From positions 1-59,424 of the forward strand of contig JAJZIU010000002.1 in the NCBI GenBank assembly GCA_021810455.1: DNA of 59,424 nucleotides, written 5' to 3'. Of this stretch, positions 1 to 35,111 are shown piece after piece (the first letter of the stretch is position 1; every line of letters begins with the position of its first letter). Below the pieces are notes generated by a model, which worked only from the letters and a program-made list of their open reading frames with translations, searched no databases and had not been told where the DNA came from. This DNA comes from Candidatus Micrarchaeota archaeon. Lineage in GTDB: Archaea; Micrarchaeota; Micrarchaeia; Micrarchaeales; CABMGC01. Made by a program: the position numbers and the translations under genes.

Positions 1-151
1 GGGACAACTGTATGATGGAAACTAAAAGTGCCACAACTCCTTTCAATTTTATGTTCATAGCAATAACCGATAATTTGGTACAAAAGCTTTTAGTTATAAT
101 GAATAATAGTAAGATGTGTTATTGTTTTAAGGTATTTGTAAAGTGTAAAAA

Positions 152-1144
152 ATGAACAGGGAAGAAACCAATAGACTCATGTTGCGATATCTGAGCGAAG
201 ATTCTCGTTCTACAATAACAAAATTGTCATCTGTACTTAACTGTTCTAGACCAACTGTAATGAAAATACTGGAGTATTTGGAGAGGAACGCAGATCTTAG
301 ATACACACTTGAACTTGATCTGAGCAAAAAAATTCCACTTGAAAGACATCTGATAACAGTGAAATTTGCGGTAAAACCAAATGCATACGACATATCGGAA
401 TTGATTAAGAAGGACGGGTACATACACAACGCATACGCTACAGAAGGGGACTTTGATCTTGTGTTGCATGCGATCTCAAGGGATCCCTTGGAGTACATAC
501 GCTGGGAGAACAGAATTGTTACAGAATTGTCACAATACAAACCCGTATTCAAGCCTTCGGAACTGATAATGACACATTTTGGATTTCTTCCATTCAATAA
601 TGGCGTAAAGGACATTTTGAAGGGAATAATCAAGGAAAAGGATAACATGTTAATAGAAGAGCTGAATAAAAATTCAAGGACTTCTTATGCGGAATTGTCA
701 AAACTTACGGGAATAGATGAGGAGACAATAAGGTATAGGCTATTCAGGTTAAGGGAAAGTGGCATCATAAAACGGTTTACAACATATGTACAGAAACCCA
801 GGTATCCGTACAACATCATGTTCTTTGCGAATTATAGGTTCAATAAAGAAACGGCAAAGCACGCCGAGATGGCAAGGAATTCGTACATAAAAGCAAAAGC
901 TGAAAATGAACTCGGAAGCAATTACCAGTTATTGGCACCGTTGAGCGGAAGCTACAGGTTCTTTGCTATGGCAAATTTCGAAAGCAAAGAGGATGCTATG
1001 AAAAATGCCATAAGAAGGCACAAATTCATTTTTGAATCCGAGAATGTGGAGATAAAACATGCAAGAATTATTAGTGTGATGAAAGGGATGATGCCTTATA
1101 GGAATTTAGACATACAACGCAACTATACAAGGATAGACTGGTAA
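152..1144 (+). CDS. Tandem (duplicated) Lrp/AsnC-family transcriptional regulator
   Basis: 330-aa ORF with two winged-HTH segments (TITKLSSVLNCSRPTVMKILEYLE and SYAELSKLTGIDEETIRYRLFRLRESGII). Each is followed by a roughly 80-aa RAM-like region. Length is about twice a normal Lrp/AsnC protein. Confidence 0.7.
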   Translation: MNREETNRLMLRYLSEDSRSTITKLSSVLNCSRPTVMKILEYLERNADLRYTLELDLSKKIPLERHLITVKFAVKPNAYDISELIKKDGYIHNAYATEGDFDLVLHAISRDPLEYIRWENRIVTELSQYKPVFKPSELIMTHFGFLPFNNGVKDILKGIIKEKDNMLIEELNKNSRTSYAELSKLTGIDEETIRYRLFRLRESGIIKRFTTYVQKPRYPYNIMFFANYRFNKETAKHAEMARNSYIKAKAENELGSNYQLLAPLSGSYRFFAMANFESKEDAMKNAIRRHKFIFESENVEIKHARIISVMKGMMPYRNLDIQRNYTRIDW

Positions 1145-1348
1145 AGGAGTAGGTGATGAGGTCGAGTGGTGGGGATCGTCCTCAGCACGAATAGATGTTC
1201 TCAATTTCTAAATATTTAAACGTTATTATTTATGAAAATTTATAGTGATATTTTAGGCTTTTTGTAAATTTAAAGGATGGAGAAAATAAATCATATAATG
1301 CCGTATATGCCAATAGCGTCTTTTATTTTTTTGCGTCAAATTCCAATC

Positions 1349-2587
1349 ATGCAAACTTTAGACTTGTCAGACGATGAGATTATTGAAAAGATCACGAAAA
1401 AGGAGCTTCAGATGTATAAACTCGAAGAGTATCTGGGTCCGAATAAAGCGGTTGAAATAAGGAGGCAGATTGTTGAAAAAGCTACGAACTCTAACCTGGC
1501 CGATCTCTCTATCGAAGATGCGGATTACTCCCAAATGGTAAATAAGAATGCCGAGAATGTGATAGGTTTCATAAGAATGCCGATAGGCATAAGCGGACCT
1601 ATCACCATACACGGAGATTATGCGTCGGGTGAGTTTTATGTGCCATTGGCAACAACAGAAGGAGCGCTTATAGCAGGCATAAATAGGGGAATGAAAGCCA
1701 TATCTGAAAGCAACGGTTCTAAAGTCAAAATACTTGGAAATGCCATGGCAAGAGCCCCCCTTTTCGAGTTTGATTCGATAACAGAGGTTGGCGAATTTCT
1801 AAATTGGCTGGATTTGAATATGGACAATGTCAAAAAAATTGCAAATGCAACAACCTCGCACGGAAAGCTTAGAGATGTCAAGCCTTTCGTTACAGGTAAT
1901 AACGTGTGGCTGAGAATGTCGTTTGAAACAGGTGATGCCATGGGGATGAATATGGCAACAGTCGCTTCGGAAGCAGCGAGCAGTTACATAGAGGAGGAGT
2001 TCCCTAAAGCGCACTTAGTTACAGTAAGCGGTAACATGTGTTCTGATAAGAAGGAGTCGATGGTTAATAATCTTCTTGGAAGGGGGAAAACAGTAGTTGC
2101 CGATGCCGTGATAAACAGGAAGGTGTGCAGCGAGGTACTTAAAACGACACCAGAGCAGATAACAAGAGTGAACATGAAGAAAAACATGCTTGGAAACGCA
2201 AGAGCTGGAAGCACAAAGTTCTCAGGGCATTCTGCAAATATAGTCGCAGCTGCTTTTGCAGCTACGGGGCAAGACATAGCCCAGGTAGTCGAAAGCAGCA
2301 GTTGTTATACATGGGCAGAGGCCAGAGAAAGTGGATTGTACATATCGGTAACCTTGCCTTCATTAGAAGTAGGAACTGTGGGTGGCGGAACATCGCTTCC
2401 GTCCCAAAAGGCCGCACTGTCTATAATAGGAGCTGCTGGACAAGGAGAAACGATAGGAACCAACGCAAACAAGCTAGCAGAAATAATAGCTGCTGCAGTA
2501 CTAGCTGGTGAACTTAACCTTTTGGCAGCTCAGGGAAACAGAGAGCTGGGAAAGGCACATAGTAAACTGGGAAGAAACATCAAATAG
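1349..2587 (+). CDS. hmgA: Class I HMG-CoA reductase (mevalonate pathway)
   Basis: Motifs TTEGALIAG, GDAMGMNM, GTVGGGT and a C-terminal LGKAH. The ORF is open from 1277, but the ATG at 1349 (MQTLDLSDDEIIEK) fits the usual archaeal N-terminus better. Confidence 0.9.
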   Translation: MQTLDLSDDEIIEKITKKELQMYKLEEYLGPNKAVEIRRQIVEKATNSNLADLSIEDADYSQMVNKNAENVIGFIRMPIGISGPITIHGDYASGEFYVPLATTEGALIAGINRGMKAISESNGSKVKILGNAMARAPLFEFDSITEVGEFLNWLDLNMDNVKKIANATTSHGKLRDVKPFVTGNNVWLRMSFETGDAMGMNMATVASEAASSYIEEEFPKAHLVTVSGNMCSDKKESMVNNLLGRGKTVVADAVINRKVCSEVLKTTPEQITRVNMKKNMLGNARAGSTKFSGHSANIVAAAFAATGQDIAQVVESSSCYTWAEARESGLYISVTLPSLEVGTVGGGTSLPSQKAALSIIGAAGQGETIGTNANKLAEIIAAAVLAGELNLLAAQGNRELGKAHSKLGRNIK

Positions 2588-2634
2588 ACTATTTTAGAAC
2601 GGTATAAAGATTTTTACTGAGAATTAAAGAGCGG

Positions 2635-3561
2635 TTGTTTATGAAGGGCAGAGTGATTAAGGCAAAGGAAATAGTTCCTTACAAGGAGATAAATGCAATA
2701 GACATGCTTTACGATAAGTACGAAGGCAGAGATGTAAACCGTAGGCAGGAACTGACGAAGGCTGAGGTGTTTGGATTATGGTCATTCAAGCACACATTGT
2801 TCTCTCTTCAAGGATCTCCAAACCATGAGTACCATTCTCCTGCAAGATGGCTTCTTAACAAGATAGCATCCAGTTCAAATGCAACAAATGACATACTGCG
2901 TGAGATGGCTCTAAAATTGCGCGTGTACGACAAAGAAGATCCGATATTTACAAACATAGCATTGAATCCCAACACGCAGAACGATTCATTGTATGTGCTA
3001 CTTAGCAGACACAAAGAAGGGATTCTAGGAAGTACTTATGCAATAGGCAACATTGATACAATAATCGCAATAGTCAGCAATCAGTCTGCTGCTCCGGGCT
3101 TGCTTGGTTACATTGCAAATTATATAACAGTGTATGGTGGAGTTTACGATAAAGTAAACGTAGATGGCGAGAACGCGAAGAGATTTTCGGAAGAGGTTGA
3201 AAAAATCAGAACAGGAAACTCTACAAATAGTTACAAATCGGTGGATTTGGTAATGAAAGACGCGATAAGAGATTCATCGATAAGGGATCTGAAAGTTTCA
3301 AAAGGAAGGATGAGTAACATACTGCTAATTCTTGAAACTGTAGTAAACAATCCTAACGTTAGACCGGAAACTCTGGAAAATATAGAGTCATTCGTAAGGC
3401 TTGTTGGAGGTTCGGAGATGGACGGATTGATTCTGGCGTTGATGTACAATCCAAAAACACCGAAGGACAGCCTCGAAAGACTTACAAGGGTGGAGAATAC
3501 GGCACTTGCAGAATTTGCAAAAAACGCTCTGCGTGAGCGGAAAGAAGAGGAAACAGATTAG
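2635..3561 (+). CDS. Hypothetical protein with NPxT/NPKTP (leucine-rich-repeat-variant-like) helical repeats
   Basis: 308-aa ORF. Recurrent motifs ALNPNTQNDSL, VNNPNVRPETL and YNPKTPKDSL resemble LRV/HEAT-like repeats. No catalytic motif recognised. Confidence 0.45.
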   Translation: MFMKGRVIKAKEIVPYKEINAIDMLYDKYEGRDVNRRQELTKAEVFGLWSFKHTLFSLQGSPNHEYHSPARWLLNKIASSSNATNDILREMALKLRVYDKEDPIFTNIALNPNTQNDSLYVLLSRHKEGILGSTYAIGNIDTIIAIVSNQSAAPGLLGYIANYITVYGGVYDKVNVDGENAKRFSEEVEKIRTGNSTNSYKSVDLVMKDAIRDSSIRDLKVSKGRMSNILLILETVVNNPNVRPETLENIESFVRLVGGSEMDGLILALMYNPKTPKDSLERLTRVENTALAEFAKNALRERKEEETD

Positions 3562-3650
3562 TGATTTGAAGAATAGTAAAGCTTAAATATCACTTAAATC
3601 ATATTTATATCGGTAATCCGTTTAAAACGGCTATTTGTGAAGGTTTTGAA

Positions 3651-4286
3651 TTGAGAACAGTTAAAATATCAGGTAAAGTAGCAGAGAATATCCAGTTTCT
3701 GAAAGAAAATGGAGGGGTATCTGGAGTAAAGAAACTCGTTATGATAGATTCCTTAACAGGACTGAAAAACAGAAGGGCCTTTGACATAGATATTGAGAAT
3801 GAGATAGAGACTTATTCCAGAGGTCTGATTAATGGGTCGCCCAAAAAGATGCACATGGTCATGATAGACCTTAACAATTTCGGGCAGATAAACAATAATT
3901 ACGGACATACTGTTGGAGATGAAGCATTGACAGCCGTAGGAAAAACTATCATGAATGGAATAAGAAGCTCGGATAAGGCGTACAGGTATGGCGGAGATGA
4001 GATGGTATTGCTCCTATCAGATACGGACAATCCGAACGCAGTAGTATCCAGAATAGCAAACGGCATTGAAAACATAAAACTGGTTTCTGAAAAAGGAGAA
4101 AGAGTGGGATTAAGCATATCATTTGGTTATGTATCGATATCTGAAGTGGGAAATCGCCTGCTTAAAAATCCGAAGAAATTTGCGAAAAAGATGAAGGACA
4201 TGGCAGACGCAAGGATGTACACGCAAAAGGAAGAAAGTGATCACGGCAGAATTAAAGAAGTTAAATCCCTTGTGAGAAGCGATTAG
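3651..4286 (+). CDS. Stand-alone GGDEF-domain protein (putative diguanylate/dinucleotide cyclase)
   Basis: DSLTGLKNRRAF, MIDLNNFGQINNNYGHTVGDEAL, RSSD-KAYRY-GGDEM (RxxD I-site five residues before a GGDEF-type motif), then MADARMYTQK. The start is TTG at 3651; an ATG at 3741 (MIDSLTGL) is the alternative. Confidence 0.8.
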   Translation: MRTVKISGKVAENIQFLKENGGVSGVKKLVMIDSLTGLKNRRAFDIDIENEIETYSRGLINGSPKKMHMVMIDLNNFGQINNNYGHTVGDEALTAVGKTIMNGIRSSDKAYRYGGDEMVLLLSDTDNPNAVVSRIANGIENIKLVSEKGERVGLSISFGYVSISEVGNRLLKNPKKFAKKMKDMADARMYTQKEESDHGRIKEVKSLVRSD

Positions 4287-4612
4287 AAGATTTCTCCGGT
4301 TATTGCAGTTACGCCTCCTTTCATACTGTAAGATGTTATATTGTGCTTTTGCTTAAGGAACTTTGCAACGTACATTGATGTATTCCCGTGATAGCACACA
4401 AGAACCGAATTCTCAAATCTTTTAAGTTGCTCGCCAGAAGAGCTTAGGAAGTCGGAAGGCTCCGCTTTTATTATATCGCCTTCATGGAGACCGAGCAGTT
4501 CTGATATGTATTCAGCAGGCTCTCGTCCAAGCCAGACAAGCTTTGTATTGTGCTTTTTAGCTATGCTCAGTGATTCTTCAAACGTGCATTCTGAAGGCGC
4601 ATTGTTGTCCAT
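4283..4612 (-). CDS. Rhodanese-domain protein
   Basis: Single-domain rhodanese pattern with active-site loop VLVCYHGNTSMYVA and a C-terminal MKGGVTA. The start is taken at the internal Met (MDNNAPSE), because the longer ORF would run into the upstream gene. Confidence 0.7.
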   Translation of the reverse strand: MDNNAPSECTFEESLSIAKKHNTKLVWLGREPAEYISELLGLHEGDIIKAEPSDFLSSSGEQLKRFENSVLVCYHGNTSMYVAKFLKQKHNITSYSMKGGVTAITGEIF

Positions 4613-4640
4613 TATTATATTATAGACAAAAAGAAATAAA

Positions 4641-5252
4641 TTATGAGCGTACCAGTAACAATGCAACTATATCCTCGAAGAAAAAATGCAATTTTCTCTC
4701 ATCTAATAAAAGAAATGGCATACTCAATATGGTTCTTTTGAGGTTATTGAGATCGGATAATGAACTTGCAATGATTATTGCGTAAGATCCATAATTAAGA
4801 TGCTGCAATGATTGCGTTAAGAATTTTATTGTGAGCTCCACACCGGATAAGCCGCCACTTATTGCAGTGTGCAAGTTCCCATCCTCTTTGGAGGATATGA
4901 GGTACGGGGCATTGAACAGTATGATATCAAAAAACCCTTCGATGTTTGAGAACAGGTCACTGTTTACAAAGGAGCATTTCGATTTGATTTTTTCCCTATT
5001 AACATCAAAATTATGCATTGCCATGGTTATTGCTTCGTTATTCACATCAGCAAACACAACATCCGATACATTATCCTGAGATGCAGCCAGAAGACCGAGG
5101 ACACCGCTGCCAGTACCCATATCAAGAATCTTAATGTCTTTGTTTTTAATCATTTTCATGCATTTTAGAAAGGTTCTGAATGCTAGTTCGGAGTCTTCGC
5201 TGGGTGGATAGACCGTCTCTGATACATCAATCTGAAATCCGAAAAACTCCAT
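4641..5252 (-). CDS. SAM-dependent methyltransferase, HemK/Mtq2-like (N5-glutamine type)
   Basis: VYPPSEDS, SAM-binding loop ILDMGTGSGVLGL, and FNAPYL (an NPPY-type substrate motif). Confidence 0.75.
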   Translation of the reverse strand: MEFFGFQIDVSETVYPPSEDSELAFRTFLKCMKMIKNKDIKILDMGTGSGVLGLLAASQDNVSDVVFADVNNEAITMAMHNFDVNREKIKSKCSFVNSDLFSNIEGFFDIILFNAPYLISSKEDGNLHTAISGGLSGVELTIKFLTQSLQHLNYGSYAIIIASSLSDLNNLKRTILSMPFLLLDERKLHFFFEDIVALLLVRS

Positions 5253-5382
5253 AAAATCATTAAACGCAAAAAAGAAAAGTAAAAGTGTATAAAATAGCTA
5301 TAAACTATTAGAAACAAGATATAAAAACTTTGAACTTTCGAAGCACATTTTTAAACTTTTTGTTTCTGGAAAACTTAATATA

Positions 5383-5991
5383 GTGGTAAATCCATTATTG
5401 TATGATTTTATGATTCATGATGACATGCCAGCTTGGTTGGTCATGGAAGATATACTTATCAGAGTAAAGGAGGGATTGTTGTCAGTTGCTCTAGAAACAC
5501 TTCAAACAGAGATAGACGCAAAGCGTGTTCAGATAAATGGACATTTGATAAAAACTCCTGAAAGTTTAGATGACAAAGAGACCAACCTATTCATAATAAG
5601 CAACATAGTGTCTCGCGAGGGAGAGATAATTGAGATGTACGAACACGAAAAGAAAAAATTAGAATCAGGCAACGTATCTCCAGAGATTGCTTATGGAATC
5701 GATGAACTTAGAAAATTTGCCATGGCAGCAGTACAACTTTCCGTATTAATGAATTACGTAGAGATAACGAACAGATGGATGAATGATGTAAAGGAAGATA
5801 CAAAAAAGGAAAATGTTGAAAGATTGATAATCGATTCAATAAAAAGCGATAGAGAAAGAAGAAACCTTATCGAATTTATCTCGAAAAGCAAAGCGTTGGT
5901 AGACATAGGATCCGTATCGGCACAAGAGAGGGAAATGATGGCTGGTGTGATTAAAAATTTCCCGGAAGGCGAATCAGGGCAAAAATTGTGA
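5383..5991 (+). CDS. Hypothetical protein
   Basis: 202-aa ORF with a GTG start that fills the gap between flanking genes. Helical and charged; no motif recognised. Confidence 0.4.
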   Translation: MVNPLLYDFMIHDDMPAWLVMEDILIRVKEGLLSVALETLQTEIDAKRVQINGHLIKTPESLDDKETNLFIISNIVSREGEIIEMYEHEKKKLESGNVSPEIAYGIDELRKFAMAAVQLSVLMNYVEITNRWMNDVKEDTKKENVERLIIDSIKSDRERRNLIEFISKSKALVDIGSVSAQEREMMAGVIKNFPEGESGQKL

Positions 5992-5996
5992 TGTGT

Positions 5997-6833
5997 ATGA
6001 AGAAGGTAGGAAGACATGTTTCAATGGATAAGGAAATTGACAATACTTTTTTGAATGCGAAAGAGATAGGTTGCACATCCATGCAGGTGTTCATAAGCAG
6101 TCCGAGAAGATGGGATGTTAAAAGGTTTAATCATGAAGAAAAATTAAAATTTATTAGTGATTTGTCAAGATTCAACATTGAACCAGTTGTTGCACATATG
6201 CCATATCTGCCAAATCTTGCATCTCCGGTAAGAGAAATACATAAAAGATCCGTAGAAACCTTAAATGCGATAGCTACTGAGGCTTCGGAATTGGAAATAG
6301 AATACGTTGTTTTACACCTGGGAAGCCATATGGGAGAAGGAAGAGAATTGGGAGTAGGAAATTTCGTTAATGCCATAAATGAGGTCGAAGACTCTCTAAG
6401 AGGTGTTACTCTTTTACTTGAAAATGAAGCAGGGCAAAAGAATAGTATAGGATCAACACCGGAAGAGCTTATTGACATATTTGATAAGATTAATTCCAAG
6501 AAAGTGGGGTTTTGCATAGACACATGCCACATTTTTGCAGCTGGTTATGACATAGGAAATGTTGAAGTTATGGAAAAGATAGATAAAACGATAGACATTA
6601 GGAATGTGCACATTTTCCATTTGAACGATTCAAAGTTCGAGTTAGGATCCAGGTTAGACAGACATGATAACATAGGAAAGGGCAAAATAGGCGCTGAAAG
6701 ATTTAGAAAGTTCTTTGGATATAAAAACGTTTTATCAAAACCCATGATATTAGAAACACCGATAAATGGGATAGATACGAAAGAAGAGTTGGAAGGTGTG
6801 AAACACCTTATGGATAAGTCGTTAAATGATTAA
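5997..6833 (+). CDS. nfo: Endonuclease IV (AP endonuclease family 2)
   Basis: MKKVGRHVS start, HMPYLPNLASP, VLHLGSH, LLENEAGQKNSIG, CIDTCHIFAAGYD, HLNDSK...LGSRLDRHDNIGKGKIG. Confidence 0.9.
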   Translation: MKKVGRHVSMDKEIDNTFLNAKEIGCTSMQVFISSPRRWDVKRFNHEEKLKFISDLSRFNIEPVVAHMPYLPNLASPVREIHKRSVETLNAIATEASELEIEYVVLHLGSHMGEGRELGVGNFVNAINEVEDSLRGVTLLLENEAGQKNSIGSTPEELIDIFDKINSKKVGFCIDTCHIFAAGYDIGNVEVMEKIDKTIDIRNVHIFHLNDSKFELGSRLDRHDNIGKGKIGAERFRKFFGYKNVLSKPMILETPINGIDTKEELEGVKHLMDKSLND

Positions 6834-6843
6834 TGGTGCGCTT

Positions 6844-7761
6844 ATGGAAACTAAAGAACTTGGGAAAACAAAGGAAAAGATACCCGCACTAGGTATGGGT
6901 ACTTGGAAGATAGGCAGCAATGAATCTGAGGGGATAGAAGCGTTGAAAACAGGGATAGATATAGGTATGAGATTTATAGACACGGCAGAGATGTATGGTA
7001 CAGAGGAGATGGTAGGCAAGACAATCGAAGGAATGGATGATATGTTTATAGCAACAAAGGTATCACCTAACCACTTCAGATACGACGATGTAATAAAATC
7101 GTGCAATAGAAGTTTGGAAAAACTTAAAGTGAAGCAGATAGATCTTTACCAACTGCACTGGCCTAATTCAAGCATACCTATAACTGAAACCATGAAGGCC
7201 ATGGAAAAATTGGTGGATCTTGGAAAGATACGGTACATAGGTGTTAGTAATTTTTCTACAAAAGAGATGAAGGACGCTCAGAATGCATTGAAACATGAGG
7301 AGATAGTATCAAATCAGGTCGAGTATAGCGTACTAGTCAGATATGTGGAAAAAGAGATACTGAAATTCTGCCAAGATAACAAAATCACCGTTATAGCGTA
7401 TAGCCCGTTTGGATCTGGAAAACTTTATGGACAGAGATCGAACAGTATGTACGACTTATTGAGAAATGTAGGTAGCAAGTATCAAAAAACTCCAAGTCAG
7501 GTAGCACTAAACTGGCTGATGTCAAAGGACAGAGTGATGGCGATACCTAAGGCAGCGAATATTGCACACATGAAGGAAAATATCGGAGCTTTAGGCTGGA
7601 AGTTGGAAGATGCAGATATGAACAAGATAAATGATTTTTTATCGGATGAGAGACCGATGGTTTGGTCTCTCAATCCTTTGGTGAAAAGAACATCGTCATT
7701 TTGGGCGAGATTGATGGAATATAAAGAAATGGGAAGAAACATGCGCGGAAAAACCAAATAA
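6844..7761 (+). CDS. Aldo/keto reductase
   Basis: LGMGTWKIG, IDTAEMYG, IDLYQLHWP, IGVSNF, NQVEYS. Confidence 0.85.
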   Translation: METKELGKTKEKIPALGMGTWKIGSNESEGIEALKTGIDIGMRFIDTAEMYGTEEMVGKTIEGMDDMFIATKVSPNHFRYDDVIKSCNRSLEKLKVKQIDLYQLHWPNSSIPITETMKAMEKLVDLGKIRYIGVSNFSTKEMKDAQNALKHEEIVSNQVEYSVLVRYVEKEILKFCQDNKITVIAYSPFGSGKLYGQRSNSMYDLLRNVGSKYQKTPSQVALNWLMSKDRVMAIPKAANIAHMKENIGALGWKLEDADMNKINDFLSDERPMVWSLNPLVKRTSSFWARLMEYKEMGRNMRGKTK

Positions 7762-7825
7762 ATGACAAAATTTATATATACCAGATGTTTTAAGAATACG
7801 GGAAAGAAGGTAAGGGCAAGATCAG

Positions 7826-8569
7826 ATGGCGATAATTAAAAGTTTAGGTTACATAGTAGGCATAATAATAGTATTTATCTTTGGAATCTCAGGAACGTAT
7901 GTTTTGGGACATTATGAACATGGATTCAACGTTCCGATAAACTCCTTGTTAGATGCTGCTTATTTTACTACGATTACGCTTGCTACTGTAGGTTATGGAG
8001 ATATTGTACCGGTTACCAATATCGCTAAAATATTCGTAATGGTACTCATAATATCAGGAATAGGTGTGTTTATAACCTCAGTAACTGTTATAACTGGTGA
8101 ATTTGTGAACAGCAGAATGGAAAAATACTCTGGAAGATTATCAGGATTTGAAAGAAGGCTTCTAAAAAATCATGTAGTGTTGATCGGAGTTGATTCAGTA
8201 AATCTGAGATTAGCTGAAAGGCTCAAAAACAAGAAAGCAAAATTTTTGATAATAACCTCAGATAAGACGATGCTTGACCACCTTAGAAGCACGGGATATA
8301 AAGCATACCTGGCAGATGAAACAAACGAAGATGACATGAAAAACTTCGAGTTGGGTAAGGCAAAGGCAATAATAATGGATATGCGTGATAAATCAAGAAT
8401 GGTTTATGCAATACTATTAGTAAGGAATCTCGCAAAGGATTCGAGAATAGTTACAGTGGCCCATACCAAGGAGGAAGAGAGGAATACAAGAAGTATGGGG
8501 GTTTCGATAGGAATAATAAATCCTGCAGATCTTGCATCAGAGATACTAGCCAAGAAACTGATAGAATAA
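7826..8569 (+). CDS. Potassium channel with C-terminal RCK/TrkA-N domain (MthK/Kch-like)
   Basis: Two TM helices flank a pore helix and the selectivity filter TLATVGYGD. A Rossmann-like HVVLIGVDSVNLRLAERL domain follows. Confidence 0.85.
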   Translation: MAIIKSLGYIVGIIIVFIFGISGTYVLGHYEHGFNVPINSLLDAAYFTTITLATVGYGDIVPVTNIAKIFVMVLIISGIGVFITSVTVITGEFVNSRMEKYSGRLSGFERRLLKNHVVLIGVDSVNLRLAERLKNKKAKFLIITSDKTMLDHLRSTGYKAYLADETNEDDMKNFELGKAKAIIMDMRDKSRMVYAILLVRNLAKDSRIVTVAHTKEEERNTRSMGVSIGIINPADLASEILAKKLIE

Positions 8570-8579
8570 CGTGTGTTAA

Positions 8580-9626
8580 ATGCATACCGTTATTATTAAA
8601 ACTAAACACGGCAAGATAAACTCTAAAAACATGAAAAGCGCAGCGTCGGCCATACGCTCTGGAAAAGTAGTAGTTTTTCCAACGGAGACGGTGTATGGGA
8701 TAGGCGCTAATGCATTTGATGAAGAAGCATGCAAAAAGATATTCGAAGCTAAAGGAAGGCCCTCGGATAATCCACTAATAGTACACGTTTCAGATCTGAA
8801 CATGGCTAAAACTGTCTGTTTTATATCTAAAAAATATGAGAAGTATTTATTGAAAGTTTGGCCTGGACCATTAACAATAATATCTAAGGCAAAAAACACA
8901 GTAGGAAAAATAGTTACGGCAAATTTAGACACAGTTGCAGTTAGAATGCCATCGAGTAGTATAGCGTTGGAATTGATAAGGACCAGTGGTGTTCCCATCG
9001 CAGCGCCGAGTGCCAACATATCAAAGATGCCATCATCCACATCCGGAAAACATGCACTAGCATATTTCAATGGAAAAGTTGACATGATACTAGATGCAGG
9101 TAGGACTAAATACGGAATAGAATCAACGGTACTTGATTTGAGAACGTTCACAGTATTAAGACCAGGAGCATTTTCAGTAGAGGATTTGACACGGGCATTT
9201 GGAAAAAAGCCGAGGGTTCACTCTGAAAACGTTGTGAGTATTAAAAAAGTAAGAAGCCCGGGTATGAAGTACAGGCATTATTCTCCAAACACTCCATTAT
9301 TTTTGTATAAAGGCAACATCAGAGACTTGAACAAGATGCTTAAAAAACACAAGAAAATTGTTTTTATAGGATCAGATAATGCATGCTCTATGATAAAGGG
9401 GGTACAAAAGATAAGATTGGGAAATTATCAGGAGGAGATTGCACATAATTTGTTTGATGCGTTGATAAAGCTTGATTCGGTCAAAGCTAAGTTCGCAGTG
9501 ATACAGTCTTTTGGCATTGAAGGATTCGGGCTTGCAGTAATGAACAGGATAGAAAAAGCTTCTAATCATTTATCATTCAAAAATGAAAAGCAGTTGCATA
9601 AACTCATGAATGTTTACAAAAAATAA
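8580..9626 (+). CDS. sua5: L-threonylcarbamoyladenylate synthase (Sua5/YrdC; t6A pathway)
   Basis: VVVFPTETVYGIGANAFDEEACKKIFEAKGRPSDNPLIVHV, SANISK, and a C-terminal Sua5 domain (YRHYSP). Confidence 0.9.
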   Translation: MHTVIIKTKHGKINSKNMKSAASAIRSGKVVVFPTETVYGIGANAFDEEACKKIFEAKGRPSDNPLIVHVSDLNMAKTVCFISKKYEKYLLKVWPGPLTIISKAKNTVGKIVTANLDTVAVRMPSSSIALELIRTSGVPIAAPSANISKMPSSTSGKHALAYFNGKVDMILDAGRTKYGIESTVLDLRTFTVLRPGAFSVEDLTRAFGKKPRVHSENVVSIKKVRSPGMKYRHYSPNTPLFLYKGNIRDLNKMLKKHKKIVFIGSDNACSMIKGVQKIRLGNYQEEIAHNLFDALIKLDSVKAKFAVIQSFGIEGFGLAVMNRIEKASNHLSFKNEKQLHKLMNVYKK

Positions 9627-9661
9627 TACCATTTATATATTCTAATATTCTCATTTTTCCC

Positions 9662-10510
9662 ATGTCAAAGATAGTTGATGTGTTAAGACTTACAAGAATA
9701 GAACACAGTGTAATGCTAGTAATTGCCGTGGTAGCTGCCGAAATGATCACGAAGGCGCTGCCGAACTGGTACATATTAACACTGAGCATAATAACTCCGA
9801 TTTTCATAAGCATGGCTGCATTTGCAATAAACGATTATTTTGACATTGAAGTAGATAGGGCGAATATGAGAAAGAGACCATTGGTTAAAGGTACCCTCAA
9901 ACCGTCAGATGCATTGCACATTACGGTAGTTGGTATAGTTATAGGAGTAATTTCTAGCGCTTTCATAAACGTGTACTGCCTGGTTATTGCCATCTTATTT
10001 GGATTGCTTTCTGTGCTTTATAGTTATAGACTTAAGAGAATGCTGCTTTGGGGAAATATGTACATAGCGTTCTCCATGTCAATACCTTTTATATTCGGAA
10101 ATTTTGTAGTTAGCAGTAACATAAGCGCAGGGATAGCTTTGGTTTCCATAATGATATTCATTAGCGGAGTAGCGAGGGAAATACATGGAACCATTAGAGA
10201 TGTTAAAGGCGATAGAAAGAGAAACGCACAAACGATGCCGATACGATTTGGCACAGGTTTTTCTGCGGTTGTTGCTCTCATTCTTTATTTCATTGCGATA
10301 CTCATAAGTGCGTACCTAATCGCATTCGTACATCCGTTTAAGTACAATGTAGCATTCATTATTCCGATTTTAATAACTGATATGATTCTGGCATTTGTTT
10401 CGATAGGATATCTTATGAGAAGTAGCAGAGGTTTTTATGACTTATCAAGGAATTTGTCATTAGTGGCAATGGCTGTTGCGCTTTTGGCAATACTAGTGGC
10501 TCCAATTTAG
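9662..10510 (+). CDS. UbiA-family prenyltransferase (DGGGP synthase-like)
   Basis: Polytopic membrane protein with the Asp-rich motif NDYFDIEVDRAN and a second motif region IRDVKGD. Confidence 0.75.
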   Translation: MSKIVDVLRLTRIEHSVMLVIAVVAAEMITKALPNWYILTLSIITPIFISMAAFAINDYFDIEVDRANMRKRPLVKGTLKPSDALHITVVGIVIGVISSAFINVYCLVIAILFGLLSVLYSYRLKRMLLWGNMYIAFSMSIPFIFGNFVVSSNISAGIALVSIMIFISGVAREIHGTIRDVKGDRKRNAQTMPIRFGTGFSAVVALILYFIAILISAYLIAFVHPFKYNVAFIIPILITDMILAFVSIGYLMRSSRGFYDLSRNLSLVAMAVALLAILVAPI

Positions 10511-10933
10511 TTCCTTGCGTAGAAGCTCCACATTTCTGCTCATTTCGGTAGGACTTATCTGTTTTGAGTGTTCTATTCCTTCATACACGCTGTTGTTATC
10601 CGTTTGAAACTTATCTTTTTCGTTACGCGGTATAAAATGGAAGTGCAGATGGGGAACAGTCATGCCGGAATATTCGCCAACCTGTGCAGTAAAATCATAA
10701 GAATCAGCGTTGTACAGTTTGAATATCACTGGTTTTATCGTATTTAATGTATTGAATATATCAACAACTTCGTTTTTTTCTAATGCAGTTATATCCGCAA
10801 CGTGTCTTCTGGGTATTAATAATGAGTGCCCTGGAAGCACGGGTTTTATATCATAAACCGCCATGGTGCTTTCGGTCAAATAAAACGCATTATTCAATAT
10901 ATCTTTATTGCAAAACGGATCAAACTTCATCAT
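10493..10933 (-). CDS. HIT-family (histidine triad) nucleotide hydrolase/transferase
   Basis: Histidine triad VPHLHFHFIPR and PVLPGHSLLIPRRH. The start overlaps the stop of the upstream protease-like gene by 1 nt. Confidence 0.85.
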   Translation of the reverse strand: MMKFDPFCNKDILNNAFYLTESTMAVYDIKPVLPGHSLLIPRRHVADITALEKNEVVDIFNTLNTIKPVIFKLYNADSYDFTAQVGEYSGMTVPHLHFHFIPRNEKDKFQTDNNSVYEGIEHSKQISPTEMSRNVELLRKELNWSH

Positions 10934-12723
10934 TATCTTCGCCTTTGGGGCTTTTTGCCAATTTTTATCAGAATCGCGATGAGCGTGACCAGTATTGCTA
11001 TTATGACTATCGAGATTACAAGCAGTACATAATAGATTTGCGATATGCTTGTCTGAATCCCAGTTATCTCCCGTGTTACGTTCAGAGTGGAATTTGACTG
11101 GCTGATTATTGATGAGTTAAGTATGAGTTTGTTTGCATTGTTGAGATTTTTGGCAAGGACCGATACAGTGTATCCGGAAGACAAATTTGAAAGGTCGTTA
11201 GGTCTTAAGGATGACTCGTAAACATAGAACATTGCTTCGTTTCCGAATTGAGAAGGCCATACTCCAAACGTTGAATTCTTAGCGTTGGATATTGTCATGT
11301 TTTCAATTTCGCCTACAGTGTAGTTTGACATCAGATCGGGATTGTTCAGAACAGCAGCGTATATCGAACCGTACAACGCAGTACCATAATTGCTGTCATT
11401 ATAACTCTCCATTGCAGTTGAAAGATAGATATTGTTCCCGTAATTCTTTGCGATATTTATGTAGTTAAGCGCAGCGTATTTGACTTGTGGAGATAATTGT
11501 ATGTCTTGACCGCCCATCTGTGATGCAATAGAGTACATTTCGTTTGCGGCACCGCACCATTCTTGAGATGCAGAAGCAACGGATAACCCGTTCAGTATCT
11601 GATCGGTAGTTATGTTTGGTGTGTTTAGAGCCTGTATGTCGGATTGTATGTTATACAGTCCCCATTCCTGTCTCAATTGTCCACCTATAACATACTCGTA
11701 ATTGTTATTTGTCATTTGAGGAGGAGTCAAGGATGAACAGTATGTTGAGATGTTGTCAAGGAGTGCTTTAGTAGACCCAAGATTGTAATATTTTGTATTA
11801 GCCAGTACAAACGCATTTTGATATTGAAGGAATGCCAGATCCGCACCGACGTATAGATATCCTTTTTGTGCCATCTCGGCGTATTTGCTTAGCTGCTGAA
11901 GCATCTGTGCTTTTGTAACACCATAGGCGCTGGATATCGAATTTATTTCTAACGCGGTTTGATTTATAGTATAATTTGTAAGTGTGCCGAAATAACTGAC
12001 ATTGCAAATTGTACATGTTATGTTTGCATAAGGAAGATTATCTAGATTGTACGAAGAGGAGATGTTATACTGCAATGGCAGTATTGGATTGCCATTCGCA
12101 TAAGCATACTTTAGAGCTTGAGAAACGTTAGAAATCTCAACAATCGGCATACCTGACTGAGTTTGAGTTATGAAATAAAGAAGGTTATAAAAACTTCCGG
12201 GAGGGACTGCTGGTACCAATGCGTACTTCATACCCGAGGCCTTAGCAGCCTGCATTTTATCGTAAACGCCACCGATTTCCCCTATATCTCCATTGCTATT
12301 TATTGTACCTGTAACGGTAAAGTCGTTGTATAGTTGCTTGTGTTCTATGCCTGATATTGCAAGTAATGTGAATGCAAGTCCAGCACTTGGGCCGGATACG
12401 CTAACATTAGGGTCGTTTATGTAATAGGAAAAATTATAGTTGCTTGAGTTTATGCCAGTATAAGCTGCAGCGTACGTTACTGCAGACATTGCAGATTGTT
12501 GAGTACTTTGGCCAACAGAATAGGGACCGCTTACCGTAACGTGACCCGAACCAGGAGTTATATTGAGGCTTATTAATGTTAGCGCACCGGTATTTTGAGT
12601 TATTAGAACAGCCGGTGCATGTATTGAAGTGACATACGAGTGCACACTGAATAATGCAAACATTGTTGACAATACGAATATCTTCGTTGAAATTTCCATA
12701 TTTGTAAGATTAGAATAAAACAT
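10933..12723 (-). CDS. Extracellular, membrane-anchored Lon-like (S16) serine peptidase domain protein
   Basis: N-terminal signal/TM. Lon proteolytic-domain pattern VSGPSAGLAFTLLAISG...TGTINSNGDIGEIGGVYDKMQAAKASGMKYALVP. Large Asn/Ser/Thr-rich region with many N-x-S/T sequons, and a C-terminal TM plus basic tail. Confidence 0.6.
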   Translation of the reverse strand: MFYSNLTNMEISTKIFVLSTMFALFSVHSYVTSIHAPAVLITQNTGALTLISLNITPGSGHVTVSGPYSVGQSTQQSAMSAVTYAAAYTGINSSNYNFSYYINDPNVSVSGPSAGLAFTLLAISGIEHKQLYNDFTVTGTINSNGDIGEIGGVYDKMQAAKASGMKYALVPAVPPGSFYNLLYFITQTQSGMPIVEISNVSQALKYAYANGNPILPLQYNISSSYNLDNLPYANITCTICNVSYFGTLTNYTINQTALEINSISSAYGVTKAQMLQQLSKYAEMAQKGYLYVGADLAFLQYQNAFVLANTKYYNLGSTKALLDNISTYCSSLTPPQMTNNNYEYVIGGQLRQEWGLYNIQSDIQALNTPNITTDQILNGLSVASASQEWCGAANEMYSIASQMGGQDIQLSPQVKYAALNYINIAKNYGNNIYLSTAMESYNDSNYGTALYGSIYAAVLNNPDLMSNYTVGEIENMTISNAKNSTFGVWPSQFGNEAMFYVYESSLRPNDLSNLSSGYTVSVLAKNLNNANKLILNSSIISQSNSTLNVTREITGIQTSISQIYYVLLVISIVIIAILVTLIAILIKIGKKPQRRR

Positions 12724-16867: not shown

Positions 16868-16953
16868 TTTACAAATTAATGTTTATTTTTATAGATTTTT
16901 TGTATTGTGCCCAGTATGACTATTATATAAATACGATTACACTACACTTAAAT

Positions 16954-21596: not shown

Positions 21597-21872
21597 AACA
21601 TGGCGAAAGAAGTCGGCATGTCTGACGTTGATACGGTTAAGGCATTGGTAATAAAGAAACATTCAGTGTATGAAGCCCTTATAGGCAAAAAAGCAGAAGA
21701 TTTGTTAGATGATATCAGACAGATTTAGCCGGATATTTGTACTTTTATCTGGTTGGTTTTTTGGAGAGTGATTTTTGAGAGGACAATACCGTAACATTAT
21801 TAAAGTCTCACTTTTAATTATGTATCGACAATTTTTAATTTACAGCGGCCAGATATTTGATAGATGTTATTT

Positions 21873-22196
21873 ATGGAAAAGCCTACATCAATAAAAGAGG
21901 TCCAAGTTGCTGAACAGAAGGCAAAACTTATTTTGGATAATGCTCTGGCTGAAAAGGAATCATCTATTTCAAAGGCTGCGAGTAAAGCGCAGAAGAATAT
22001 CGATGAAAGCATCGAAAATTCAAAGAAAATTCATGAAAAGACACTTAGAGATGCTGAACTGAAACTGATTTCAGAAAGAAAGGAGGCACTATCAAAAGCA
22101 CACAAGGATGCGGCGAAGTTGAAGAAATCTTCGATGAATAAAACAGCATTGGAGAAAGCCGTAAAAATAGCTATAAAAGAAATATTAGGTATGTAA
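21873..22196 (+). CDS. atpH: A-type ATP synthase subunit H
   Basis: Small charged coiled-coil protein directly upstream of atpI. Assigned by position in the conserved archaeal H-I-K-E-C-F-A-B-D order. Confidence 0.55.
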   Translation: MEKPTSIKEVQVAEQKAKLILDNALAEKESSISKAASKAQKNIDESIENSKKIHEKTLRDAELKLISERKEALSKAHKDAAKLKKSSMNKTALEKAVKIAIKEILGM

Positions 22197-24062: not shown

Positions 24063-24070
24063 GTGAAAAT

Positions 24071-24307
24071 GTGGTAATAACTTCCGCAGCTGCAACAGCT
24101 GCAATAGGAGCAGGATTGGCTATATTTGGAGGAGCCATAGGTACAGGAATCGCACAGTCAGGAATAGGAGCTGCAGGACTTGGACTGCTTGCAGAGAAAC
24201 CTGAAGAAATGGGAAGAGTGTTGCTCTTCATAGTACTTCCTGAAACGCTGGTCATATTCGGCCTTGTAATAGCAATTCTTATACTCTTAAGCGCTGGTGT
24301 AGTATAA
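24071..24307 (+). CDS. atpK: A-type ATP synthase subunit K (c/proteolipid, single hairpin)
   Basis: 78 aa, Gly/Ala-rich helix 1 (AIGAGLAIFGGAIGTGIAQ) and an ion-binding Glu in LPETLVIFGLV. GTG start. Confidence 0.9.
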   Translation: MVITSAAATAAIGAGLAIFGGAIGTGIAQSGIGAAGLGLLAEKPEEMGRVLLFIVLPETLVIFGLVIAILILLSAGVV

Positions 24308-24317
24308 AGGTGTAAGT

Positions 24318-24869: not shown

Positions 24870-24875
24870 TTTTTG

Positions 24876-26263: not shown

Positions 26264-26267
26264 AATT

Positions 26268-28049: not shown

Positions 28050-28058
28050 GGCGTTTGT

Positions 28059-29438: not shown

Positions 29439-29439
29439 C

Positions 29440-32584: not shown

Positions 32585-32589
32585 TATTT

Positions 32590-35082: not shown

Positions 35083-35111
35083 TAAGTACAATCACAAACT
35101 CAGGATATATT

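What the first reader, a model, noticed from the sequence alone, without database searches (positions are those of the whole stretch)
3651..4286. Stand-alone GGDEF cyclase with intact I-site in an archaeal genome
The domain is complete. It has the DxLTGLxNRR start, the metal-binding Asp in MIDLNNFG, a GGDEM active-site variant, and an RSSD I-site spaced exactly five residues upstream, as in PleD-type enzymes. It has at most ~30 residues of N-terminal sequence, so there is no sensor domain. Cyclic-di-GMP signalling is regarded as essentially bacterial, and archaeal GGDEF proteins are rare and uncharacterised. No EAL, HD-GYP or PilZ partner is present in this window. It may be a horizontally acquired cyclase making c-di-GMP or another dinucleotide (as in Hypr-type GGDEFs).
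Basis: partly seen in the sequence, partly recalled or inferred. Interest (0 to 1): 0.65.

Follow-up and report, generated by a model that had tools for sequence, protein, structure and literature searches.

The report
Genuine archaeal minimal GGDEF protein
An archaeon from acid mine drainage carries a real, long-resident gene for a small GGDEF protein, the bacterial type of enzyme that makes the signal molecule cyclic di-GMP; the gene sits at the same place in four related archaeal lineages, so it is not contamination, but this copy has lost a conserved active-site lysine and its activity is uncertain.

Summary
ORF 3651-4286 (+, TTG start, 211 aa) is a full-length GGDEF domain (Pfam E=5e-31). 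An AlphaFold model (pLDDT 89) superposes on solved diguanylate cyclases. It has an RSSD I-site five residues before GGDEM, the metal Asp, and guanine-binding Asn and Asp, so it is not Hypr-type. It has no sensor domain.

The window is clearly archaeal. It holds no EAL, HD-GYP, PilZ or c-di-GMP riboswitch.

New findings:
- The gene is not a recent transfer or a contaminant. GC and codon usage are native. Population SNPs are 4 synonymous to 1 non-synonymous.
- A GGDEF gene occupies the same slot, between HMG-CoA reductase and a HemK-type methyltransferase, in four other related archaeal lineages (27-39% identical). It is absent from three.
- All five archaeal copies share an insertion that is rare in bacterial GGDEFs.
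- No bacterial donor is identifiable; the best non-self match is 33-50% identical.
- This copy replaces the transition-state Lys (PleD K332) with Gly and lacks the basic residue at the R446 position. Its stalk helix is kinked.

Most likely it is a weak, product-inhibited diguanylate cyclase. A c-di-GMP or GTP binding role is the main rival. Only the gene is shown, not the messenger. Interest is moderate.

The parts
3651..4286 (+). GGDEF protein gene, 211 codons plus stop, TTG start
   Evidence: ORF list. Pfam PF00990 E=5.4e-31. The identical protein occurs on independent public assemblies. The N-terminal residues E12 and N13 are invariant in the five archaeal orthologues, which supports the TTG start over the ATG at 3741.
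3604..3610 (+). TTTATAT, an archaeal TATA-box-like element 41-47 nt upstream of the start codon. A weak Shine-Dalgarno-like AAGGT lies at 3640-3644.
   Evidence: Read directly from the sequence. Orthologues also carry TTTATA(TA) upstream. Promoter function is inferred, not shown.
3651..3740 (+). N-terminal 30 residues: two short helices (8-19 and 22-30) separated by a Gly-Gly kink. This is a shortened stalk and there is no sensor domain.
   Evidence: AF2 secondary structure, pLDDT 61-79 in this part. Orthologues have longer uninterrupted heptad-like segments here.
3741..4232 (+). GGDEF catalytic domain (residues 31-194)
   Evidence: Pfam envelope. Foldseek best matches 4urs/4urg, 3i5c, 3ign, PleD and DosC.
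3867..3869 (+). Asp73, the metal-binding Asp (PleD D327)
   Evidence: Invariant in 242 aligned domains. Role taken from PMC7288161.
3882..3884 (+). Gly78 at the position of the transition-state Lys (PleD K332)
   Evidence: The four orthologues all have Lys. Among the 237 other aligned domains the counts are K 195, G 23, R 9, H 9. Gly78 is unchanged in the two populations whose contigs cover this codon (X5, X6). Role taken from PMC12943098.
3891..3920 (+). Asn81 to Asp90, the guanine-binding pair (PleD N335 and D344). Asp90 argues against Hypr specificity.
   Evidence: Both residues are invariant in the alignments. Hypr enzymes carry Ser at D344.
3963..3974 (+). R105-S-S-D108, the primary inhibitory (I) site RxxD
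   Evidence: Read from the sequence. It lies five residues before GGDEM. The secondary I-site Arg (PleD R390) is R134 and the R313-like Arg is R57.
3990..4004 (+). G114-G-D-E-M118, the active-site hairpin (a GGDEF motif with Phe replaced by Met)
   Evidence: Read from the sequence. The Phe position also holds I or L in 26 of the 237 other aligned domains.
4137..4202 (+). Insertion between the last strand and the final helix, specific to this archaeal family
   Evidence: The G159-to-D186 spacing is 25-42 residues in all five archaeal orthologues. The median is 17 in the 237 other domains, and only 2% reach 26.
4227..4250 (+). K193 (PleD K442) followed by E-E-S-D197-H-G-R200. The canonical +4 Arg (R446) is Asp. 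A Gly-Arg pair sits at +6/+7, as in orthologue L022.
   Evidence: Alignments.
4283..4612 (-). Conserved convergent neighbour: a small rhodanese-like protein of 109 aa
   Evidence: Homologous 107-108 aa gene at the same place in L017 and L027. Weak GlpE hit. No functional link is shown.
4641..5252 (-). HemK/Mtq2-type methyltransferase, the downstream synteny anchor
   Evidence: NCBIfam PRK14968 and TIGR00537. Present beside the GGDEF slot in the syntenic loci except L023 (L023).
1277..2587 (+). Class I HMG-CoA reductase, the upstream synteny anchor used to find related loci
   Evidence: Pfam E=2.6e-124. Homologue search.

Best explanation
This is a genuine, long-resident archaeal gene for a minimal GGDEF protein: a short N-terminal stalk helix plus one catalytic domain. 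It belongs to a small, fast-evolving family confined so far to a clade of acid-mine-drainage archaea. An ancestor of that clade probably took the gene from bacteria long ago. It has since been inherited vertically at one chromosomal position and lost in some lineages.

Most likely mechanism (inferred, not shown):
- Two copies pair through the N-terminal helices.
- Each binds one Mg-GTP, using Asp73 and Asp116/Glu117 for the metal, Asn81 and Asp90 for guanine, and Lys193 for phosphate.
- Together they form c-di-GMP.
- The product then binds the intact I-site (Arg105/Asp108, Arg134) and shuts the enzyme off.

Turnover in this particular copy is probably low. The transition-state Lys is Gly78, the R446-position residue is Asp197, and the stalk is kinked by Gly21-Gly22. 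What the signal controls is unknown.
For: Real GGDEF domain and fold:
- Family matches and fold are clear.

Genuinely archaeal context:
- The gene lies on a 59-kb contig with archaeal genes on both sides.
- The same arrangement appears in independent assemblies and in a 12-kb contig of another study.

Native composition and selection:
- GC and codon usage are typical of the window.
- Population variants are 4 synonymous to 1 conservative non-synonymous.

Conserved synteny:
- A GGDEF gene sits in the same slot in L017-19, L021, L022 and L023.
- All five copies share a rare insertion.
- GGDEF-less loci L020 and L025 nest among GGDEF-bearing ones in an HMGR tree, which points to loss.

Conservation pattern:
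- At about 33% mean identity, the 24 invariant residues of the five orthologues include the GTP-, metal- and I-site residues D33, L35, N40, D73, N81, D90, R105, D108, R112, D116, E117 and K193.
- Orthologue L017 has every canonical catalytic residue.
- Gly or His at the K332 position occurs in about 13% of the otherwise canonical non-archaeal domains aligned here, so the Lys may not be indispensable.
Against: - Gly78 replaces the residue that reviews call the transition-state stabiliser. The window protein is the only one of the five orthologues to do so.
- The natural Gly/His subclass has Lys or Arg right after the N335 position. The window has Asn there.
- The +4 basic residue after K193 is Asp.
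- Two orthologues (L021, L023) have two-residue insertions inside the GG hairpin. This suggests relaxed constraint on catalysis in the family.
- No c-di-GMP has ever been detected in an archaeon.
- No degrading enzyme or receptor gene was seen in the window or in any related locus.
- There is no transcript evidence.
Confidence: 0.5

Rival explanations
1. The protein is catalytically dead or nearly so. It works as a nucleotide-binding module, either a c-di-GMP receptor through the intact I-site or a GTP sensor through the A-site, and passes the signal to a partner by protein-protein contact. Degenerate bacterial GGDEF proteins work this way.
For: - K332 is Gly and the R446 position is Asp.
- The stalk is kinked and short.
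- The I-site residues R105, D108, R134 and R57 are all kept.
- Relatives L021 and L023 have disrupted GG hairpins yet keep RxxD.
Against: - Known receptor-type GGDEFs usually have a degenerate GG(D/E)EF motif (general statement). Here GGDE, D73, N81 and D90 are all intact.
- A receptor needs a source of c-di-GMP, and no other cyclase is known in this organism. The window holds only one GGDEF locus.
Confidence: 0.3
2. It makes a different nucleotide product, such as 3',3'-cGAMP or c-di-AMP as Hypr-type GGDEF enzymes do, or a linear dinucleotide.
For: The active site is atypical (Gly78, Met118), and archaea are known to use adenine-based messengers.
Against: The Hypr determinant is Ser at PleD D344. 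Here and in all four orthologues it is Asp, with the partner Asn also kept. This is the signature of guanine specificity.
Confidence: 0.07
3. It is a decaying relic of an old transfer that is no longer used.
For: - Distribution is patchy: the gene is absent from three syntenic loci.
- The family diverges fast, at 27-39% identity between orthologues whose HMGR is 60-66% identical.
- This copy has active-site substitutions.
Against: - The reading frame is intact over 211 codons.
- Population variants are 4 synonymous to 1 non-synonymous. This is about 1.6% likely if three quarters of changes were non-synonymous, but it rests on only five sites.
- Functional residues are invariant across five lineages.
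- The model is confidently folded.
Confidence: 0.1
4. It is bacterial contamination, a mis-assembly, or a very recent transfer into one strain.
For: The literature explicitly raises this worry for GGDEF genes on archaeal contigs. The best named sequence relatives are Desulfosporosinus, bacteria of the same acidic habitats.
Against: - The flanks are the same in independent assemblies from three studies.
- Composition is native.
- Syntenic orthologues exist in other archaeal lineages.
- Identity to Desulfosporosinus is only 38-51% over 46-67% of the protein.
Confidence: 0.03

Closest known systems
Bacterial diguanylate cyclases of the GGDEF family with an I-site (PleD, WspR, DosC, T. maritima TM1788)
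   Same: - Same fold (Foldseek TM-score up to 0.86, rmsd 2.2 A).
- Same D-x-LTGL-x-NRR start, metal Asp, Asn/Asp guanine pair, GG(D/E)E hairpin, RxxD five residues upstream, R390-like Arg and K442-like Lys.
   Different: - No REC, PAS, GAF, haem or membrane sensor domain; only a 30-residue kinked helix.
- K332 is Gly.
- The R446 position is Asp.
- Phe of the motif is Met.
- An insertion of about 9 residues precedes the last helix.
- The host is an archaeon.
Minimal 'coiled-coil stalk + GGDEF' cyclases: P. aeruginosa SiaD (7e6g) and C. crescentus DgcB (6ttr)
   Same: - Short proteins in which an N-terminal helix is the only extra element.
- Among the best structural and NCBIfam matches.
- SiaD needs a partner protein on its stalk, which offers a possible model for regulation here.
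   Different: - The SiaD equivalog score is 96.9 against a cut-off of 290, so this is not a member.
- The stalk here is much shorter and broken by Gly-Gly.
- No SiaC-like partner gene is present.
Short two-TM GGDEF proteins of Desulfosporosinus (D. acidiphilus SJ4, D. shakirovi, D. lacus)
   Same: - Best named sequence relatives (38-51% identity over the core).
- Similar size (about 225 aa).
- 'NN' instead of 'ND' after the P-loop.
- Acidic mine-type habitat.
   Different: - They have two N-terminal membrane helices.
- They keep a basic residue (Arg) at K332.
- They lack the archaeal insertion.
- Identity is too low to call them donors.
Previously reported archaeal GGDEF hits: Methanocella arvoryzae CAJ37382; REC plus inactivated GGDEF in Ca. 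Micrarchaeum acidiphilum; more than 300 BLAST hits in Asgard and DPANN MAGs
   Same: GGDEF domains annotated on archaeal sequence, uncharacterised, several from acid-mine-drainage lineages.
   Different: - Those reports left open whether the genes are truly archaeal.
- Here residency is shown by synteny, composition and population data.
- This protein has no REC domain and has an intact GGDE motif.
- No direct sequence comparison with those proteins was possible with the tools.
Hypr GGDEF enzymes (Geobacter GacA, Bdellovibrio Bd0367)
   Same: GGDEF fold. The Geobacter Hypr domain structure 6d9m is among the sequence hits.
   Different: They have Ser at the D344 position. Here it is Asp.

Membership tests
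GGDEF domain family (Pfam PF00990 / TIGR00254) | Profile score above the curated threshold over the whole domain | tested here: met
   108 bits against 23.8, profile positions 2-156 of 161. 112 bits against 37.4.
GGDEF domain family (Pfam PF00990 / TIGR00254) | GGDEF fold (five-stranded sheet with flanking helices, palm-like) | tested here: met
   AF2 pLDDT 89.3. Foldseek probability 1.00 to more than 50 solved GGDEF chains, TM-score up to 0.86. This rests on a predicted model, not a solved structure.
Catalytically competent diguanylate cyclase | GG(D/E)EF hairpin with both Gly and both acidic residues | tested here: met
   G114 G115 D116 E117 are present. The fifth residue is Met instead of Phe, a hydrophobic replacement.
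Catalytically competent diguanylate cyclase | Metal-binding Asp (PleD D327) and guanine-binding Asn and Asp (N335, D344) | tested here: met
   D73, N81 and D90 are invariant in the 242-domain alignment. Roles.
Catalytically competent diguanylate cyclase | Transition-state stabilising Lys (PleD K332) | tested here: not met
   Gly78. All four archaeal orthologues have Lys. Among the 237 others the counts are K 195, G 23, R 9, H 9. Role.
Catalytically competent diguanylate cyclase | Phosphate-binding Lys and Arg on the last helix (PleD K442, R446) | tested here: inconclusive
   K193 is present. The +4 position is Asp197. Arg200 follows a Gly at +6/+7, as in orthologue L022, so a local three-residue insertion may shift the Arg.
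Catalytically competent diguanylate cyclase | A means of homodimerisation (regulatory or coiled-coil domain N-terminal to the GGDEF domain) | tested here: inconclusive
   Only helices 8-19 and 22-30 with a Gly-Gly break. Orthologues have longer helices. No oligomer prediction was possible.
Catalytically competent diguanylate cyclase | Formation of c-di-GMP from GTP | not testable with these tools
   Needs an enzyme assay.
Product-inhibited (I-site) cyclases, PleD/WspR type | RxxD exactly five residues upstream of GG(D/E)EF, plus the secondary Arg (PleD R390) | tested here: met
   R105-S-S-D108, then KAYRY, then GGDEM. R134 aligns with R390 and R57 with R313.
PleD/WspR response-regulator cyclases | N-terminal REC domain(s) | tested here: not met
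   No REC hit. The PleD equivalog scores 94.6 against a cut-off of 474.
Hypr GGDEF (cGAMP synthases) | Ser in place of the guanine-binding Asp (PleD D344) | tested here: not met
   Asp90 here and Asp in all orthologues. Determinant.
SiaD family | NCBIfam equivalog NF038266 score above cut-off | tested here: not met
   96.9 bits against 290.
Degenerate receptor-type GGDEF domains (I-site kept, A-site lost) | Degenerate GG(D/E)EF motif and A-site together with an intact RxxD | tested here: inconclusive
   RxxD is intact. The A-site is mostly intact, with only K332 and the R446 position changed.

The most novel reading that the evidence does not exclude
This clade of acid-mine-drainage archaea runs a working c-di-GMP (or related dinucleotide) signalling system, inherited vertically. 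Minimal stalk-GGDEF cyclases would be the writers. The readers and erasers would be unrelated to the bacterial EAL, HD-GYP and PilZ set. That would be the first c-di-GMP signalling in the domain Archaea.
Probability: 0.3. Interest if true: 0.8.

Novelty: new member of a known kind. Interest (0 to 1): 0.5.

Why it matters
Reviews state that c-di-GMP has never been detected in an archaeon. They also say GGDEF genes on archaeal contigs still need to be shown to be archaeal rather than bacterial contamination.

This locus supplies that demonstration for one lineage:
- a GGDEF gene embedded in archaeal core genes;
- native in composition;
- under purifying selection;
- conserved in position across five lineages.

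It also gives a natural experiment for testing whether any archaeon makes c-di-GMP. One orthologue has a fully canonical active site (L017 type). This window's copy lacks the transition-state Lys. Two others have insertions in the GG hairpin. All are small soluble proteins that are easy to express.

The find itself is a member of a very well known domain family, and nothing here shows that the messenger exists.

Tried and rejected
1. Donor hunt.
- A word-indexed search, a genome-collection scan and an exhaustive phmmer of 1.84 billion representatives found no relative above about 50% partial identity.
- No bacterial donor can be named.

2. Phylogeny.
- A neighbour-joining tree of 242 GGDEF domains is saturated, with distances of about 1.1-1.2.
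- It pairs the window only with L022 (bootstrap 21%) and does not recover the five archaeal proteins as a clade.
- Common ancestry therefore rests on synteny and a shared insertion, not on the tree.

3. Profile search.
- A profile of the five orthologues found no further family members. Scores drop from 272 to 134 bits.
- It also failed to list the L017 and L022 proteins themselves, so its sensitivity is limited.

4. Transcription.
- Three metatranscriptomes of the same study contain nothing from window 1-12000 at contig level.
- This is uninformative, not negative.

5. Partner genes.
- Pfam scans of 62 ORFs, Rfam and PADLOC found no EAL, HD-GYP, PilZ, riboswitch or defence context.
- The HD protein at 16879-18204 matches only the generic Pfam HD domain. 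Its HDIGHYPFSH motif looks dNTPase-like rather than HD-GYP; that reading is mine and was not tested.

6. Upstream genes.
- The upstream 308-aa ORF is unrelated to the small ORF that precedes the GGDEF gene in relatives.
- That small ORF has no copy in the window.

7. Remnants.
- No GGDEF remnant is detectable in the GGDEF-less syntenic loci.

8. Phylum.
- One conspecific NCBI MAG is labelled Candidatus Marsarchaeota.
- An HMGR tree, local synteny, FtsZ and histone genes point to Micrarchaeota-like MAGs.
- The question is not resolved.

9. Literature.
- No mutational data on K332 were found in the searchable library.
Full report
**1. The observation**

The ORF listing gives one ORF at exactly 3651..4286 on the + strand. 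It has 211 codons and starts with TTG. That TTG is the first start codon after an in-frame TAA at 3615-3617; the only other candidate is the ATG at 3741 (Met31).

Pfam GGDEF (PF00990) matches residues 31-194 at E=5.4e-31. The match covers profile positions 2-156 of 161, so the domain is full length. TIGR00254 gives E=2e-32. The best solved relatives by sequence are bona fide cyclase domains: 3ign, DosC, WspR and a Geobacter GGDEF.

An AlphaFold2 model built on a 42-sequence alignment is confident (mean pLDDT 89.3, pTM 0.82). Foldseek places it on the T. maritima GGDEF domain (4urs/4urg, TM-score 0.84-0.86, rmsd 2.2-2.3 A). More than 50 further diguanylate cyclase chains follow.

- D33-SLTGLKNRR;
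- D73 in MIDLNNFG;
- R105-SS-D108, followed by five residues and then G114-GDEM118.

The 30 residues before the domain form two short helices (8-19 and 22-30) separated by Gly21-Gly22. No second domain is found.

**2. The host is archaeal and no partner gene lies nearby**

Pfam scans of 52 long and 10 short ORFs found these archaeal markers:
- eIF6, ribosomal proteins S19e and L39e, prefoldin;
- RNA polymerase subunit L, a PDCD5-like DNA-binding protein;
- a complete A-type ATPase operon;
- Rad50, FtsZ and class I HMG-CoA reductase;
- four proteins with archaeal pilin-type N-termini (QSAMEYLMTYGWSILI).

None of the 62 ORFs hits EAL, HD-GYP, PilZ or MshEN. The HD protein at 16879-18204 matches only the generic HD domain and carries HDIGHYPFSH; I read this as dNTPase-like rather than HD-GYP, but did not test it. 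Rfam finds only a tRNA-Gly, so there is no c-di-GMP riboswitch. PADLOC finds no defence-system context. The window holds only one GGDEF locus.

Sequencing runs that hold this DNA are mine-drainage, mine-tailings and sediment metagenomes.

**3. It is a resident gene, not contamination or a recent transfer**

The literature raises exactly this doubt. Galperin et al. 2018 note that the only accepted archaeal GGDEF was in Methanocella arvoryzae, and that GGDEF-bearing contigs of Ca. Micrarchaeum might be contaminated. Romling 2022 says presence in archaeal contigs needs confirmation. Braun et al. 2021 report more than 300 unverified BLAST hits in archaeal MAGs, and no c-di-GMP detected in Haloferax or Sulfolobus.

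Four lines of evidence apply here.

(a) The identical protein with the same flanking genes occurs in independent assemblies. A 12-kb contig from a different study covers 2600-5300 without a break.

(b) GC is 39.5% against a window mean of 38.8%. Synonymous codon usage ranks 29th of 52 genes, which is typical.

(c) Variants between populations within the gene are four synonymous (K28, A43, G58, L59) and one conservative non-synonymous (S63T, in a loop). If three quarters of random changes were non-synonymous, one or fewer out of five has a probability of about 0.016. This is weak but consistent evidence of purifying selection.

(d) I used the adjacent HMG-CoA reductase to find related genomes; the closest is only 65% identical. 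Pfam-annotated GGDEF genes lie in the same slot, downstream of HMGR and just before the HemK/Mtq2-type methyltransferase (in L017 also before the small rhodanese-like gene). They occur in four further lineages (in L023 the methyltransferase is missing and the next conserved genes follow directly):
- L017-19, 271 aa;
- L021, 262 aa;
- L022, 213 aa;
- L023, 242 aa.

Three other syntenic loci lack the gene and show no remnant: L020, L025 (which has a PIN gene with an upstream small ORF there, possibly a toxin-antitoxin pair) and L027. In a neighbour-joining HMGR tree, the GGDEF-less L020 and L025 sit inside the GGDEF-bearing group, next to L021. That fits an ancestral presence followed by losses.

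**4. Relationship to bacterial GGDEFs**

The orthologues are only 27-39% identical to the window protein. This is no closer than the best bacterial hits.
- Short two-TM Desulfosporosinus proteins are 38-51% identical over 46-67% of the query.
- An exhaustive phmmer over 1.84 billion representatives found 363,602 relatives at E<=0.001. Nothing scored above 130 bits apart from the protein itself.
- A neighbour-joining tree of 242 domains is saturated. It pairs the window with L022 at 21% bootstrap and does not recover the five archaeal proteins as a clade.

Sequence phylogeny therefore neither names a donor nor proves that the family is monophyletic.

A rare shared character does support common ancestry. 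The segment between the last strand (G159) and the final helix (D186) is 25-42 residues in all five archaeal proteins. The median is 17 in the 237 others, and only 2% reach 26. The window and L022 also share a three-residue insertion after K193.

A profile of the five finds no additional members. Scores drop from 272 to 134 bits. The family looks small and lineage-restricted, with the caveat that this search also failed to list two of its own query proteins.

**5. Careful residue check**

I used PleD numbering. Residue roles come from two reviews. My register for PleD comes from my own recall of its sequence. It reproduces all published residue numbers: L294, D327, K332, N335, D344, R359, D362, E370, R390, K442 and R446.

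| PleD position | Window residue | Note |
|---|---|---|
| L294 | L35 | conserved |
| D327 | D73 | conserved |
| N335 | N81 | conserved |
| D344 | D90 | conserved |
| R359xxD362 | R105xxD108 | conserved |
| R366 | R112 | conserved |
| G368-E371 | G114-E117 | conserved |
| R390 | R134 | conserved |
| K442 | K193 | conserved |
| F372 | M118 | I or L also occur in 26 of 237 others |
| K332 | G78 | deviates |
| R446 | D197 | deviates; a Gly-Arg pair sits three residues later |

K332 is described as the transition-state stabiliser. All four orthologues keep Lys. Among 237 other domains the counts are K 195, G 23, R 9 and H 9. The Gly/His-bearing domains form a distinct subclass with Lys or Arg immediately after the N335 position, whereas the window has Asn there.

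Gly78 is unchanged in the two populations whose contigs cover this codon (X5, X6), and all database copies carry it, so it is not a sequencing error.

Asp at the D344 position excludes the Hypr signature, which is Ser.

Across the five orthologues, at about 33% mean identity, the 24 invariant residues include the GTP-, metal- and I-site residues. Two orthologues carry two-residue insertions inside the GG hairpin: L021 has G-DR-GDEF and L023 has G-RG-ADEF. L022 has RTGKD instead of RxxD. L017 is fully canonical.

**6. What it most likely is and does**

Shown:
- a folded, selected, resident archaeal GGDEF-domain protein;
- an intact guanine/metal site and an intact I-site;
- no sensor domain.

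Inferred: it dimerises through the short N-terminal helix, condenses two GTP into c-di-GMP, and is feedback-inhibited through R105/D108/R134. Turnover is probably low because of Gly78, Asp197 and the kinked stalk. I put this at about 0.5.

The main rival, at about 0.3, is a non-catalytic nucleotide-binding role through the I-site or A-site. Against it, the GGDE motif is intact and no other cyclase is known in the organism. A different product (0.07), a decaying relic (0.1) and contamination or recent transfer (0.03) are less likely, for the reasons above.

No effector, phosphodiesterase or transcript was found, so the existence of the messenger in this organism is not shown.

**7. Taxonomy caveat**

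Proteins at least 90% identical to several window proteins belong to an NCBI MAG labelled Candidatus Marsarchaeota archaeon.

Other evidence points elsewhere:
- The HMGR tree groups the window clade with MAGs labelled Micrarchaeota or Micrarchaeia.
- The window shares the POR-HMGR and K-channel-Sua5 gene pairs with one such MAG.
- The window has FtsZ, and relatives have histones.

I leave the phylum open. 'Archaeal' is secure.

**8. Comparison, novelty, verdict**

In family terms this is a member of the GGDEF domain family. It meets most, but not all, sequence criteria of an active, product-inhibited diguanylate cyclase. It is not a PleD, SiaD or Hypr member.

It works most like minimal stalk-GGDEF cyclases such as SiaD and DgcB, and like the isolated TM1788 domain.

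I rate it a new member of a known kind. Its value is the demonstration that a GGDEF gene is truly resident and conserved in an archaeal lineage, together with a ready set of natural active-site variants for testing archaeal c-di-GMP synthesis. Interest 0.5.

Noticed in passing
window 31553-36885 (+), with 30052-31499: Four consecutive genes encode proteins with archaeal pilin-type N-termini (QSAMEYLMTYGWSILI). Three have a LamG/ConA-like domain. The fourth, 841 aa, has a long Thr/Ser-rich linker and beta-propeller repeats. The block has raised GC (43-45% against about 38%) and the most atypical codon usage in the window. It is preceded by an IS110-family transposase fragment (31086-31499, minus strand) and about 1 kb without a convincing gene. 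It may be an acquired surface-structure island.
   Followed up: partly
window 2635-3561 (+): The 308-aa ORF just upstream of the GGDEF gene has no Pfam hit. It carries repeated 'NP(N/K)T..D.L' segments and gives weak hits to designed armadillo-repeat proteins (E about 1e-5 for the whole sequence; no single stretch passes on its own). It has no counterpart at this position in the related loci, which have an unrelated small ORF there instead.
   Followed up: partly
L021 9849-10193, L020 2441-2974, L022 9487-9987, L025 8803-9228: A conserved small protein (motif EYWEGF..KEYE.R.Y..KDGIRLFQSSTIEA.SP) lies between HMGR and the GGDEF slot in relatives. In L021 its stop overlaps the GGDEF start. It persists in loci that have lost the GGDEF gene. 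It is absent from the window.
   Followed up: partly
L021 10190-10978 and L023 4869-5597: These orthologous archaeal GGDEF proteins have two-residue insertions inside the GG hairpin (G-DR-GDEF and G-RG-ADEF) while keeping the metal, guanine and RxxD residues. This is an unusual natural variant of the signature motif.
   Followed up: partly
window 16879-18204 (+): A 441-aa HD-domain protein with an HDIGHYPFSH motif. It matches only the generic Pfam HD domain and looks dNTP-triphosphohydrolase/SAMHD1-like rather than HD-GYP.
   Followed up: partly
window 21864-30051 (+): An A-type ATP synthase operon: an unassigned 110-aa first ORF with no Pfam hit, then subunits I, K, E, C, F, A, B and D.
   Followed up: partly
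window 38082-42780 (-): A SUF iron-sulfur assembly cluster (SufS, SufC, SufD-like, SufB), with a small HTH protein gene at 42726-43052.
   Followed up: no
window 10933-12723 (-): A 596-aa protein with a Lon-protease C-terminal (S16) domain, many N-x-S/T sequons and a C-terminal membrane anchor. This is an odd architecture and was not analysed further.
   Followed up: no
L025 93-2078 (-): The 2-oxoacid:ferredoxin oxidoreductase beta subunit of a related archaeon is 661 aa instead of about 295. It carries intein and LAGLIDADG hits, so it appears to be interrupted by an intein.
   Followed up: no
window 45581-46669 (-) and 46505-47410 (+): The longest ORF for the OMP-decarboxylase-like gene overlaps the 5' end of ftsZ by about 165 bp. 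Its true start is probably an internal Met.
   Followed up: no
P0299-P0432 (hits): A sizeable subclass of 450-530-aa GGDEF proteins has D.D.F(G/H)..N(K/R).(Y/F)G(F/Y/W)P.GD and (V/T)DW.ARYGGEEFC(V/I). The K332 Lys is replaced by Gly or His, and a basic residue follows the guanine-binding Asn. I could not link this subclass to a characterised enzyme.
   Followed up: no
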